Source of the DNA: Eledone cirrhosa
Taxonomy: Eukaryota
DNA length: 64,000 nt
Assembly (NCBI GenBank): GCA_964016885.1
Contig: OZ024742.1
Coordinates: forward strand, 246,512,001-246,576,000
Direction: 5' to 3'
Shown: one piece after another, positions 21,152-59,214 of the stretch
Numbering within the stretch: position 1 is the first letter of the stretch
How the letters are laid out: every line of letters begins with the position of its first letter
Notes under the pieces: generated by a model
Seen by the model: the letters and a program-made list of their open reading frames with translations, nothing else
What the model was told of the DNA's origin: nothing
Database searches by the model: none
Translations under genes and position numbers: made by a program

Positions 21152-21205
21152 ATGGCTTCTACAGGACTAGATCTGTTTCATTCGGGAGAAATCATCAGAA
21201 GCCAT
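21152..21205 (-). ncRNA. Hammerhead motif at an inversion junction
   Basis: atggctt-CTGATGA-ttc..gaa-t-GAAACAG..CT-GTA-gaagccat; family also at 46368-46420 and 49511-49612. Confidence 0.6.
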
Positions 21206-21304
21206 TTCTATATTAAATATTTATACTCTGCTTTGTATTGAGTACCTTACTTACTGTGGTTACCTCCGATTGAACCCGGGATAAACTTATATATATATAT
21301 ATAT

Positions 21305-21894
21305 AGGGATTAGCGAGAGTTTATGGCTCCGTTAATTTATCGTGATATTTCGCTCCTTATAACAGTCTTTCCTCTCTCTCTGTTTGGTTGAGCACACTTC
21401 TCTGAGTGGTTTTGGCCTGCCCTATCTAGCAGCTCGTCCCCCAGACACCACTGGTTCACTGCTCTAAACACGCTGTGACATCTCTCTCCCGCGTGTAGTT
21501 GGACGGTCTCTTTAGATTCTCTTAGAGTTGTCTGAAATTTATAGCCTTACACACGCTGATGAACCATGGGCTATTTCATTTCAGTCAACAACTTATTGGC
21601 GAAACAGATCTCTTTGGATTTGTACGTGTGTGTTATATAGTTATAGAGGTACGTATTTACATTTTAATTTATGTTTTTAATTATCGTGTCTCTACCCTGC
21701 CTTTCATAGGTTATAGATTCCATACACTGGTGGTTTTCCCTGTGTTATTGATGGCACACTATCTATCTCTCTCTCTCTAGTGTGTTACCCTTTCAACATA
21801 TAGTATTTTAAAGAGCTCAGGATTCCTTCTCCTTTGAGCACATTATTGGCAGGGAATAGCGAGAGTCTATGGCTCCGTTAATTTATCGTGATAT
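21305..21894 (+). mobile_element. Terminally redundant ~546-bp non-coding unit carrying an HHR (retrozyme-like or solo pLTR)
   Basis: 44-bp direct repeat at 21305 and 21851, (TA)n on both sides, internal HHR. Confidence 0.65.
21549..21631 (+). ncRNA. Full type-I hammerhead ribozyme
   Basis: acacacg-CTGATGA-cca..tgg-c-GAAACagatc..gattt-GTA-cgtgtgt; 7-bp stem I and an extended stem III. Confidence 0.8.
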
Positions 21895-21928
21895 ATATAT
21901 ATATATATATATATATACTGTATATACT

Positions 21929-22144
21929 GGAATTTCGTATTTTAGAAGAAATACGTTATGTTTAAAATAAACATTTAGAGAGCCGTAGCTAAAACACCAG
22001 CGACTAACGCCGTCTGGCGGTGTCTAGCAGAAGAAGGGGGTGGGGGTGGGGGAGATTGTCTCTCTTGCTTCTGCTGGACACCGTTACGGCTCTCTAAATA
22101 TTTATTTTAAACATACTGTATTTCTTCTGAAATACGAAATTCCA
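21929..22144. mobile_element. MITE-like fold-back (~60-bp imperfect TIRs, inner hairpin)
   Basis: tggaatttcgtat..gagccgtagc versus gttacggctc..atacgaaattcca. Confidence 0.65.
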
Positions 22145-22457
22145 ATAGATATCTGTTTACAACTATGACTGAAGCAAATTGTAACCCCCTCTTTCTCTCT
22201 CTCTCTCTCTCTCTCTCTCTCTCTCTCTCTCTCTCTCTCTCTCTCTCTCTCTCTCTATATATATATATATATATATATATATATATATTATTCATACATA
22301 CACACATACACATACATAACACACATACGTGCACATATATATGTAAATACACATACACATTTATCAGCACATCTATTGTAACATGCTGACTTATAAAGTC
22401 AAGTGCAATAGCTTTATATGATTATTTATTTCTCTCTCTATATATCTATCTATCTAT

Positions 22458-22892
22458 CTTTTTTCAAATACCACTTTGGAAGAAGAATCAGGATGGAGAG
22501 AGAGGTGCTGTACCCCAGCAAGTTTTATGAAAGGTGGGTGAAAGTGGCGAGAATGGCCCGAGTGAATGGGCCTTCTCTCTATATCAGCCTGTAGATTGAG
22601 GAAAAGGAGGAGGAGAGGAAAGGAGTACAAGCTCTTCGTACTCCTGGAGATGAGGGTTGCACATTTTTTTCGGGGGTATGTGTTACCCATATAAACTGTC
22701 TCCCTCTATTGGGGAAAATCGACTAACTTTTAAATTCCATCTGTGATAACATTTTACACGTTTTTATTGTATGTAAACTTCCCCCTTTGTATTTGTCCCC
22801 TTCTTTTGTGCCCCTGTGGCTAATAAAGAAATATATCTATCTATCTATCTATCTATCTATCTATCTATCTATCTATCTATCTATCTATCTAT
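22458..22892 (+). mobile_element. Tx1 3'-end fragment (subfamily B) with (TATC)n tail
   Basis: Almost identical to ~28294-28710; preceded by tatc repeats. Confidence 0.9.
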
Positions 22893-23710
22893 CAACACCA
22901 AAACAACCACCACCACCACCACCACCACAAGTACAACGACAGACGAAACGAGCAACCACACCAAAACAAACAGACACTCAACCAACAACAACAGAAAAAA
23001 CAGAGACAACACCCCTGAAGAACACATCCCCACTCCATCCCACTCCATCAAACACTACCACAAACACACATACCGAAACACCACCACCACCACACAACAT
23101 ACCCTTACCCCACACACCTGACGATGATTATTCATCGACGGATGAAGCTGCTTCTCCTTCTTTAAGTGAAGAAGAGGGAGAACCGCGGAAATCCAAAAAA
23201 CAAAAAAAGAGACACCACAAAACCCCCAAAACTCCAATCACCAACACCAACACACAACCACAGACACAAACAACACAAACAACACCACAGTCAAACACCC
23301 CCCTATCAGCAAAACCAGCACCAACACCACCCCAAACACAAGCACCCACCATAAAAAGAAAACTCCCAGATGAACAACAAACTAAAACAATACAACAAAA
23401 ACACAAACAACAATACGCATACATCAACACAAACAACAAGAGTTTGATGGAGGTCATCTCCCAAAACCCCAAGGTGGAGACGGAGGGCAAAACTTTCGTC
23501 AAGGCAGAATCGTCTCCACACCTTAAACTTATAAGGGTTTCTATGGAAACCTATAAAGACCTGAAAATTAAATTTTCACAGGACGTGGGCAACCCCTGCC
23601 ACAAACCCATCAACCGCGTCCTGTTGAAAGGTTTCCCCACCCCACCCAACACCCCATCCAGCACCCAAATGGAGATTGAACAACCCGATCTCCAGGAAAC
23701 GAAAAGGTAA
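22893..23710 (+). CDS. 5'-truncated ORF1 C-terminus of Tx1 element (Pro/Thr/Gln-rich, acidic and basic patches)
   Basis: Open frame starting at the end of (TATC)n and stopping 41 nt before the ORF2 ATG. Confidence 0.7.
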
Positions 23711-23751
23711 GTGCACCTTTCGTCCTTTTTCTCCAACTTTTCTTCACCAAC

Positions 23752-56409: not shown

Positions 56410-56997
56410 ATATTTCATATTTCATATATTTCATATATTTCATATATTTCATATATTTCATATATATATATATATATATATATATAATACAAGGACGATT
56501 TAAGCCTTCATTGCGGTTATTGGTTGGTGACCCGCGTTTCAGTATTGATCATCTCAAGGTTCGATCTGCATCGATCTGTCTAGCTCTACGTCTCGATACT
56601 GATGTGAACCATCGCGTGCTCACATGGGTGAATCTACAGTAACTTCACGTTACACTCCCTGGATATATATATATATATATATATATATATATATATATAT
56701 ATATATATATATATATATATATATATATATATATATATATATATATATATATATATATATATATATATATATATATATATATATATATATATATATATAT
56801 ATATGTATATATATATATATATATATATTAATAAATATTTGCTCTACGATTCTTATATATTTGATATATATTTATCCTTATCGAGCCCTCGTGGGATTAT
56901 AGTCTTCAAATTTATTATTATTACTATATATATATATATATATATATATATATATATATATATATATATATATATATATATATATATATAATTATTA

Positions 56998-57403
56998 AAA
57001 TAACAGATTAAAGTTTAGGCAAAGAATCGCTGCTTTCACCCTTAACGGGATCTTCTGAAACTAAAAAAGTCAATCTGTGAACGCAGAAGTAAATATTTCG
57101 AAAAACGTTGCAACCGAAGGAAGACGATACTTCGGTTCGTAAAGACGTTCCCTGGCAAACGTGGTATTGTCTTTGCGAGTAATCGTTCTCACCGCTCCAA
57201 ATAATGACGTAATATCTTCGCTTTTTTCCGTTCATTGCCAGAGAACGTCTCCACGAACCAAAATATTGTCTTCCTGTTTTCCTTTGGTTGCAACGTTTTT
57301 CGAAATATTTACTTCTGCGTTCACATATTGACTTTTTTAGTTTCAGAAGATCCCGGTAAGGGTGAAAGCAGCGATTCTTTGCTTAAACTTTAATCTGTTA
57401 TTT
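56998..57403. repeat. Fold-back with ~125-bp arms, flanked by a duplicated ~95-bp repeat (56830-56925 / 57406-57500)
   Basis: taacagattaaag..caaccgaaggaa versus ttcctttggttg..ctttaatctgtta. Confidence 0.85.
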
Positions 57404-58065
57404 CATTAAATATTCGCTCTAGGGTTCTTATATATTTGATATATATTTATCCTTATCGAGCCCTCTTTGGATTTTAGTCTTCAAATTTATTATTATTACT
57501 ATTATATATATATATATATATATATATATACATATATACACACACACACTATATATATATATATATATATATATATATATATATATATATATATATATAT
57601 ATATATATATATATATATATATATAACACTTCAACCTATATTTACTGAGTAGACTTATTCAACGTCATTACCTTTGATATCCACTATTAAAAATATCTTT
57701 TGGAGATGTATTTTTATATTCTTAAATTTATATTTGACCTGCATAGCTGCTCATATTAACTTTATAAACTTTTGTAATGCTTATGATATATATTTGTTTA
57801 CTAATTATGATATATGTCTTGCACTATACCTAACCTTTCTATACAACCATGTTTCTTTATAATAGCAGGTTTCACTACAGCAGCATGCCTTTAACATTTT
57901 TAATGCTTTTAACTGCTCTTAATTTTATTTTAATGCATTTATATACTCATTTTTTCATATGCTTCTTCTACCTTTGCTATATTTTCTTATATAAATGTTG
58001 ATACTTATGCTTACTTCCCATATTATGTATCCTTCTAATGTTCTTATGACAAACTTCTGATATTA

Positions 58066-58210
58066 TATTTATCGACCCCGTAAGGTGGAAACGCAAAGTT
58101 AACACACCGAGGTTTTCTTTGCCTTCCTCCCTTACGGGCTCGATAAAATAAAGTACCAGTAATACACTTGGATAATTGCTGGCCTTGTGCCAAAAGTAGA
58201 AACAATTATA
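58066..58210. mobile_element. OK-SINE 3' half with an inverted fragment
   Basis: tttatcgacccc..gcaaag mirrored by ctttgcc..tcgataaa. Confidence 0.7.
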
Positions 58211-58839
58211 TTTGTGTTTTAACCTTTATTATATACTCCGAGGATAACGGCTTTGTGCGAGAATGAAACGATCGTAAATGATTAAATGTTTTAAACACAC
58301 TTTGATTGTTATTTATAAAGAATTTCGGCTCTGTAATATACTTGTTATGTTACATTGAGCTATTCTTACACTTGTAATTGGATAATATTTGATATTACCC
58401 ACATTATACACACACACACACACACACACACACACACACACACACACACACACACACACACACACACACACACACACACACACACACACACACACACACA
58501 CACACACACACACACACACACAGATACAATTATATATCTAATATATATTTGTGAAATGGGCGGTGGTTGAAATTCAGTTGTGCACGGTTAAATGGTAGTA
58601 GACGTGGTCGCACTGACATGAACATTTTTTATTTACTATATTAATATATATATATATATATATATATATATATATATATATATATATATATATTTTGAGT
58701 TTATGTTGGTTGTATACCAACACCTCAGTATGCAGGCTGGAGCACTCGACGAGGTGCGCAGGTTGGTTTGGTTACTCCGGAGTAGTGTAAAATAAAGTTC
58801 AATAAAAAGTCAAATGATTAAAATTTAGCCTCGTTTATT

Positions 58840-58894
58840 ACTGCTATATATATTTCAGTGACAGCCATCTTTGGCTGTGACCTCTTCAGGCAGT
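58840..58894 (-). ncRNA. Hammerhead ribozyme
   Basis: actgc-CTGAAGA-(acagcca/tggctgt)-GAAA-tatat-ATA-gcagt-AATAAA. Confidence 0.8.
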
Positions 58895-59112
58895 TTGAAT
58901 TAGTATGGTATAGACAAGTACATATGTTGTTGAGGTGTATAATATTGTCAATACTCTGATATGCCCAGTTCCTGGTTGGGTTGTTATTTCATTGAGGAAT
59001 TGGAATCATATATATATATATCATATATATATAATCATATATAATCATATATATATATATATATATATATATATATATATATATATATATATATATATAT
59101 ATATATATATAT

Positions 59113-59214
59113 ATAATATAAGATCAAAAGATGGTTAAAGGAGTTCCATGTATTTTATTATGCGCATAATAAAATACATGGAACTCCTTTAACCATCTTT
59201 TGATCTTATATTAT
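59113..59214. repeat. Perfect palindrome, 51-bp arms, centre tgc|gca
   Basis: The arm matches the sequence 3' of the HHR at 38775-38845. Confidence 0.92.

What the first reader, a model, noticed from the sequence alone, without database searches (positions are those of the whole stretch)
21152..59214. Inversion junctions coincide with hammerhead stems
The perfect palindrome 59113-59214 is centred exactly on atgc|gcat, the self-complementary stem III of the HHR seen intact at 38775-38845. At ~21200 and ~49560 the strand switch falls in stem I (ggcttc/gaagcc), and at 5295/5377 it is next to an HHR-like core. Known: PLEs often have inverted pLTRs, and minimal HHRs dimerise via a palindromic stem III. 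Inference: ribozyme helices or cleavage ends act as the self-priming or template-switch point that builds the inverted ends, a specific and testable mechanism.
Basis: partly seen in the sequence, partly recalled or inferred. Interest (0 to 1): 0.75.

Follow-up and report, generated by a model that had tools for sequence, protein, structure and literature searches.

The report
Penelope inversions join at RNA cap
These mirror-image repeats are short insertions of Penelope-type jumping genes whose commonest turning point is the likely start of the element's capped RNA rather than its ribozyme, which suggests that two DNA copies are made from an uncut RNA and then joined head to head.

Summary
The four sites are real head-to-head stubs of three Penelope-like retroelement (PLE) families in (TA)n. 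The 59113-59214 palindrome is centred on hammerhead stem III, but that junction is rare: 18 copies against 515 centred 120 nt upstream, and 0 of 40 junctions in a position-ordered sample. Arm ends pile up at one sharp site per family with an initiator-like motif. Copies that begin there carry a non-native G in front (45 of 100 and 79 of 100 rows; 18 of 100 at a control site), the expected trace of a copied mRNA cap. In the 21155/49560 family this site is the first base of stem I, which explains the coincidence. No peak at the predicted cut was found beyond stem-I pairing. 39 of 40 inversions have one short and one tailed arm. Best model (0.72): both target strands prime cDNA at two start sites on uncut RNA; the cDNA ends are joined by microhomology, and ribozyme stems act only as microhomology.

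The parts
59113..59163 (-). Family A short arm (stem III centre to the first RT start site, about +46)
59164..59301 (+). Family A tailed arm (stem III centre to the second RT start site, about +134)
59160..59167 (.). ATGCGCAT, 8-bp self-complementary junction (stem III sequence)
38775..38845 (+). Family A type I hammerhead; predicted cut between 38837 and 38838
   Evidence: cleavage not tested
38714..38714 (+). Family A position -124: likely transcription start (A of TTCATA), the genome-wide hotspot of arm ends
38642..38878 (.). Family A inverted insertion with junction at 38684-38688, upstream of the ribozyme
21143..21287 (.). Family B' inverted stub; short arm (-) 21143-21198, tailed arm (+) 21198-21287; junction of core with 3' strand of stem I
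49512..49701 (.). Family B' inverted stub; tailed arm starts at 49560 (likely transcription start, first base of stem I) behind a G at 49559 shared with the short arm
   Evidence: (same form as L425)
46367..46434 (+). Family B' uninverted stub that also starts at the 5' strand of stem I
5007..5626 (.). Family D inverted insertion; tailed arm (-) ends at 5377 (likely transcription start), short arm (+) starts at 5378 before a non-canonical hammerhead-like core
36920..38394 (.). Family C inversion, hammerheads near both outer ends, junction near 38082, far from the ribozyme
45281..45522 (.). Family C inversion with junction at 45372-45376, about 40 nt upstream of stem I

Best explanation
The sites are head-to-head pairs of short Penelope-like copies, likely made when both cut strands of a (TA)n target prime reverse transcription at two fixed sites on a capped, uncut element RNA and the two cDNA ends are then joined. 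Shown: one arm ends at the near start site and one at the far site (tail); arm ends pile up at one sharp position per family; a non-native G precedes copies that start there; junctions are rich in microhomology or short inserts; both arms mostly share subfamily variants. Inferred: the sharp position is the transcription start and the G is the copied cap; the start sites lie only 70-380 nt from the cap, so both cDNAs often run off the 5' end; the far-site enzyme displaces the first cDNA or uses a second RNA from the same source; any self-complementary sequence at the two ends, ribozyme stems included, gives a clean palindrome. Ribozyme cleavage is not needed and is at most a minor source of ends.
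For: Family A: 33 of 80 arm ends in 8 nt at -126..-119, 22 of 40 junctions, none centred on stem III; palindrome there 515 against 18; 4157 copies start at -124 behind a non-native base, G in 45 of the first 100 rows, against 116 copies and 18 of 100 at a control site with the same C|ATAT context (p 6e-5). Family B: 58 of 104 arm ends at -47..-39 and 1 at -56..-48, TATAAATA 30 nt upstream; 2065 copies start at -45, G in 79 of 100 rows, also straight after simple repeats in uninverted copies (L401, L409-L411, L415). Family D: 14 of 70 ends at -1..+6 of an initiator-like site, 2 in the core. One short plus one tailed arm in 39 of 40. The short arm reaches further 5' in 43 and the tailed arm in 20 (A and B, p 0.005), which a single self-copying cDNA cannot give. 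Microhomology of 3 or more in 12 of 22 insert-free junctions against 8.4% by chance; arms agree at 162 of 180 subfamily sites, 72 disagreements expected. In vitro, a PLE protein cuts and extends both strands, starts at two sites bounding the tail, and needs no ribozyme cleavage (PMC11167929).
Against: The start sites and cap are read from DNA alone. Some G's are ambiguous: 7 of 16 in family A loci also match a native base of the other arm; family B has no control site of its own. Base counts of 100 rows were made by eye and cover the first rows only. 18 of 180 sites disagree between arms. Stem III gives three times as many palindromes as a weaker non-ribozyme one (32 against 11). 4 of 30 family B loci starting at the cut have both arms downstream of it, 7 of 80 family A ends lie at +1..+10, and family D has 8 of 38 ends near its putative cut (p 0.003, uncorrected, window chosen afterwards). 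Long or compound inversions were not called by the mapper.
Confidence: 0.72

Rival explanations
1. Ribozyme helices stall or redirect the reverse transcriptase and so set the inversion points (first reader, helix version).
For: Stem III palindrome recurs 32 times; stem-I junction in 19 of 30 family B loci read; 9 family A ends in 24 nt of stem I/III strands against 30 in 138 nt.
Against: That excess is not significant (p 0.11); ribozyme against adjacent stretch p 0.73; stem-I junction found once in family A (one subfamily variant only), where the RNA start is not at stem I; palindromes outside the ribozyme recur too.
Confidence: 0.08
2. Self-cleaved RNA supplies a run-off end at the cut, and this makes a minority of the junctions on top of the main mechanism.
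Against: 29 of the 41 have the prefix of the stem-I pairing class, leaving 12 against 14. Family A: 71 hits at the cut, 18 of a class that proved to be 3-nt slippage deletions in 11 of 11 read, leaving at most 53 against 39 and 38 at control sites (p 0.17, 0.14; the patterns differ in how many ends they can catch). Only 2 of 104 family B ends at -2..+2.
Confidence: 0.2
3. A single cDNA (or an antisense template) folds back and primes on itself, as proposed for bdelloid Penelope palindromes.
For: Arms share variants; 29 of 92 junctions are near-symmetric; proposed in PMC3846280.
Against: In 43 junctions the tailed arm is the shorter one at the 5' side, so neither arm contains the other; both arms can carry the extra G (L375/L376; opposite-strand pairs one base apart); the G marks a sense, capped template.
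Confidence: 0.07
4. The palindromes are assembly artefacts or copies of one palindromic master element.
For: No sequencing contig listed spans the 59113-59301 stretch (uninformative for so high a copy number).
Against: Different flanks, several subfamily variants mirrored in both arms, constant one-sided tail and varied junctions.
Confidence: 0.03

Closest known systems
Inverted pLTR insertion units of endonuclease-bearing PLEs (PMC8557442, PMC3846280; passages read)
   Same: 5'-truncated inverted copy, tail on one end only, (TA)n targets, hammerhead in the pLTR, palindromes at the junction.
   Different: Those passages give no junction map; PMC3846280 proposes self-priming on an antisense template, whereas here the ends mark a sense, likely capped RNA and two cDNAs.
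PAc Poseidon element in vitro (PMC11167929; passages and second part of main text read)
   Same: Both strands cut and extended, two RT start sites bounding the tail, uncut RNA as main template.
   Different: It does not address how inversions form; tails here are about 40-90 nt.
L1 twin priming (as described in PMC4245944, passage read; extra G from mRNA capping mentioned in a figure legend of PMC11702581)
   Same: Two target ends prime cDNA; ends joined by microhomology or inserts; cap-derived G.
   Different: Here both primings use fixed internal sites near the 5' end, and the two arms overlap on the template, giving near-palindromes; non-overlap in L1 is recalled, not from a call.
Minimal type I hammerheads of PLEs (PMC4209133, passages read)
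   Same: Short palindromic helix III, location in pLTR.
   Different: The palindrome is used here as DNA microhomology; no sign that RNA dimerisation is involved.

Membership tests
C-terminal-endonuclease PLE | RT followed by GIY-YIG endonuclease, tandem pLTR-ORF-pLTR | tested here: met
   Family A L119 3744-7376 (RDDG core, LIYECK..TYFG); family B ORF follows the tail (L154); family D GIY-YIG upstream of its pLTR. Motifs read by eye; Pfam gave 0 families for 3 of 3 fragments.
C-terminal-endonuclease PLE | [quoted passage not shown] | tested here: met
   39 of 40 family A junctions; 15 of 15 stem III palindromes asymmetric.
Hydra clade (families A, B) | DKG changed to DKT | tested here: met
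   SDKT in both; definition from PMC8557442 section 11.
Hydra clade (families A, B) | CxCX5C linker, no CCHH, CxxC and CxH in the endonuclease | tested here: met
   Family A only: CNCPAKNKC, CNLC, CLH, one C between GIY and YIG. Family B C-terminus not read.
Hydra clade (families A, B) | RWK motif | tested here: inconclusive
   RLRWI in A, RIRWR in B.
Hydra clade (families A, B) | Generally under 3 kb | tested here: not met
   Family A unit is 3633 nt; so filed as Hydra-like only.
Hydra clade (families A, B) | Phylogenetic placement | not tested
   No tree built.
Type I hammerhead ribozyme | CUGANGA and GAAA core, stems I-III, NUH | tested here: met
   Families A, B/B', C.
Type I hammerhead ribozyme | Canonical core in family D (5378-5412) | tested here: not met
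   TTGATGG, no matching stem I, z +0.66.
Type I hammerhead ribozyme | Self-cleavage | not testable with these tools
   Needs an in vitro assay.
Twin priming (works like) | Two independent target-primed cDNAs joined by microhomology | tested here: met
   Arm geometry and microhomology; intermediates not observed.
Twin priming (works like) | Target-site duplication around the unit | tested here: inconclusive
   Flanks are (TA)n, so duplications cannot be read.
Capped Pol II transcription start | RNA 5' ends mapped at the site | not testable with these tools
   No RNA holder listed.

The most novel reading that the evidence does not exclude
The inverted ends typical of Penelope-like elements are in general the product of one protein dimer copying one capped, uncut RNA from two start sites onto both ends of a break, by strand displacement, up to and including the cap. 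The stubs are then a genomic record of start sites, readable without RNA data, and the hammerhead sits at the 5' end of the mRNA (at base 1 in family B) as a switch that removes the cap and takes the RNA out of translation, not as a maker of transposition ends.
Probability: 0.35. Interest if true: 0.7.

Novelty: new variant of a known kind. Interest (0 to 1): 0.5.

Why it matters
How PLE inverted ends form and what their hammerheads do are open questions; the model I found in print is self-priming on an antisense template. Thousands of young copies here point instead to a sense, capped, uncut template copied twice. That gives in vivo support to the in vitro result that cleavage is dispensable, predicts exact start sites for three families, and gives a cheap test (extra G at the stub edge) for any genome rich in PLEs. 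The ribozyme-specific mechanism first proposed accounts for at most a small share of junctions.

Tried and rejected
RNA evidence: no RNA holder listed among 5 runs; laying contigs of 4 runs on 59113-59301 was uninformative. Rfam scan was swamped by microsatellite matches. Pfam found nothing on three ORF fragments. A first BLAST-based junction list (57 rows) mixed internal and compound joins and was replaced by an alignment mapper. The similarity search with the 5295 locus returned look-alike junctions by construction and was not used for counts. Splicing or trans-splicing as the cause of the edge in families B and D (CAG before it; in D. virilis an intron ends at helix I, PMC4209133) was rejected because no constant upstream sequence is attached. 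A master stub with a built-in G was rejected because upstream contexts vary. Literature searches: (0 papers with Penelope + non-templated G + cap + retrotransposon); none of the listings or passages seen maps PLE junctions to a cap. PMC1190285 was not held; no supplements were read, and those of PMC11167929 and PMC8557442 may bear on the novelty claim.
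Full report
Setting. The window lies in a 3.0-Gb genome rich in (TA)n. The four cited sites belong to three repeat families. Family A (59113, 38775) has a 3633-nt unit with RT and C-terminal GIY-YIG and Hydra-like motifs (L119). Family B/B' (21155, 49560) has a related ORF starting after its tail. Family D (5295) has a GIY-YIG with CxxC between the motifs. All are Penelope-like by motifs read by eye; no tree was built and Pfam gave no hit. Coordinates below are relative to the predicted cut (+1 = first base after it) for A and B, and to the initiator-like A for D.

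Observation. 59113-59214 is a perfect palindrome centred on ATGC|GCAT, the stem III sequence of the hammerhead at 38775-38845. 49560 turns at the first base of stem I; 21198 joins the core to the 3' strand of stem I with one G missing. 5295/5377 is a single junction beside a non-canonical core. Three further inversions of hammerhead families in the window turn outside the ribozyme (38684, about 38082, 45372).

Family A. The stem III palindrome occurs 18 times as an exact 46-mer; the 15 read have different flanks and one short plus one longer arm. An anchor downstream of the ribozyme has 4548 matches; the first 100 rows were fetched. The mapper kept 40 junctions and 43 copies without a called inversion, many running beyond the 430-nt reference; long and compound inversions were missed (its printed coordinates are 2 too low, corrected). 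Of 80 arm ends, 33 lie at -126..-119, 14 at -118..-64, 21 in the ribozyme (-63..+8), 4 at +9..+44, 6 upstream and 2 in the tail; ribozyme against adjacent stretch p 0.73; no junction is centred on stem III; 16 of 40 have at least one arm end in the ribozyme. The palindrome at the hotspot occurs 515 times as a 46-mer. As 26-mers, stem III gives 32 and the weaker TTTAAA palindrome outside the ribozyme 11. A near-palindrome just downstream of stem I gives another recurrent junction (11 of the 19 loci fetched for their GT prefix). The stem-I junction was found once.

Family B. Of 8483 tail matches the first 90 rows were read; 52 were called inverted. 58 of 104 arm ends lie at -47..-39, 1 at -56..-48, 2 at -2..+2. 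The edge is the A of CCCAGA, 30 nt below TATAAATA, and is also the first base of stem I. The B' subfamily of the window shows the same pile-up by eye in 30 loci. That CCCAGA, TTCATA (A) and CTCAGA (D) fit the initiator consensus BBCABW is recalled knowledge.

The extra G. 4157 family A copies begin at -124 behind a base other than the native C; the first 100 rows show G 45, T 45, A 10. At -78, with the same C|ATAT context, there are 116, with G 18, T 57, A 25 (p 6e-5). 2065 family B copies begin at -45; G 79, T 11, A 10. These tallies were counted by eye. In 30 B loci, 22 have G, several directly after simple repeats, and 4 of the 8 others are point mutants of the native flank. In 30 A loci, 7 of 16 G's could also come from the other arm. 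Copying of the cap as an extra G is established for retrotransposed mRNA (recalled; mentioned in a legend of PMC11702581). A cDNA that reaches the cap from a start downstream of the ribozyme needs an uncut template.

The cut. Family A: at most 53 hits at +1 against 39 and 38 at -4 and +7 (p 0.17 and 0.14). Family B: 41 against 14, but 19 of the 30 read are pairings of a start-site arm with the 3' strand of stem I, which needs no cleavage, and both orientations of this class occur (21198; L167). Four of the 30 have both arms downstream of the cut. Family D (100 anchor copies from 90 loci, 17 junctions, 70 uncensored ends): 14 at the start site, 2 in the core, 9 at +102..+120 around its putative cut, one a duplicate (p 0.003 uncorrected). 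A minor cleaved-template class is therefore not excluded.

Mechanism. 39 of 40 inversions pair the near and far start sites, matching the two sites and two-strand extension seen in vitro (PMC11167929). The short arm reaches further 5' in 43 cases and the tailed arm in 20, and four B tailed arms stop at +24, next to the near start at +22. Neither arm then contains the other, which excludes simple fold-back for those copies and fits a second enzyme that must displace the first cDNA (lack of RNase H in PLE RT is recalled). Arms agree at 162 of 180 subfamily sites: one RNA, two RNAs from one locus, or later conversion; these are not separated. Junctions show microhomology (12 of 22 with 3 or more, chance 8.4%) or inserts (18 of 40).

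Comparison and novelty. The architecture is known (PMC8557442; PMC3846280). The palindromic helix III is known (PMC4209133). The Penelope promoter lies at the element's 5' end (PMC2377424, passages). bioRxiv 10.64898/2026.07.22.740005 (first of five parts read) did not bear on junctions. Seven searches showed no paper mapping PLE junctions to a capped end; subscription papers and supplements were not seen. Earlier notes on this genome reach similar two-copy models, one naming a likely RNA start and one a minor class at the cut; I formed my reading before seeing them, and the second prompted the cut-site counts. A word search found none on the cap G.

Verdict. Observation partly confirmed, interpretation partly supported: stems act as microhomology, but the likely capped 5' end sets most junctions. 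Interest 0.5; new variant of a known kind.

Noticed in passing
window 23680-27198 (+): Open frame of 1172 aa that looks like an endonuclease-RT non-LTR element, with partial copies at 10194-11902 and 27498-28728.
   Followed up: no
window 7469-9711 (+): RT-like frames of another non-LTR element, in two reading frames.
   Followed up: no
window 55594-56331 (-): Fragment of another Hydra-like PLE with an asparagine-rich linker, 34% identical to family A.
   Followed up: partly
window 59520-59700 (+): Broken GIY-YIG-like fragment just downstream of the palindrome (read by eye).
   Followed up: no
window 21556 (+), 36744 (+), 58889 (-), 60418 (-), 32908 (-), 63741 (+): Further hammerhead-like descriptor hits, some probably chance.
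   Followed up: no
window 56992-57409, 42854-42977, 3722-3817, 7197-7306, 21921-22151, 33068-33772: Other inverted repeats, most beside (TA)n, probably stubs of further families.
   Followed up: no
L076, L394, L451, L459: Junction inserts made of repeated short copies of the arm end, like the templated inserts of polymerase-theta end joining (recalled).
   Followed up: no
L317-L345 (11 loci): Recurrent 3-nt slippage deletion at the family A cleavage triplet in otherwise intact copies.
   Followed up: partly
L138, L155, L165, L178: Distance from TATA box to stem I differs between B subfamilies, so the start site may move relative to the ribozyme.
   Followed up: no
family D +43 (L235, L481, L508): Three uninverted copies start at the same base, +43; unexplained.
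   Followed up: no
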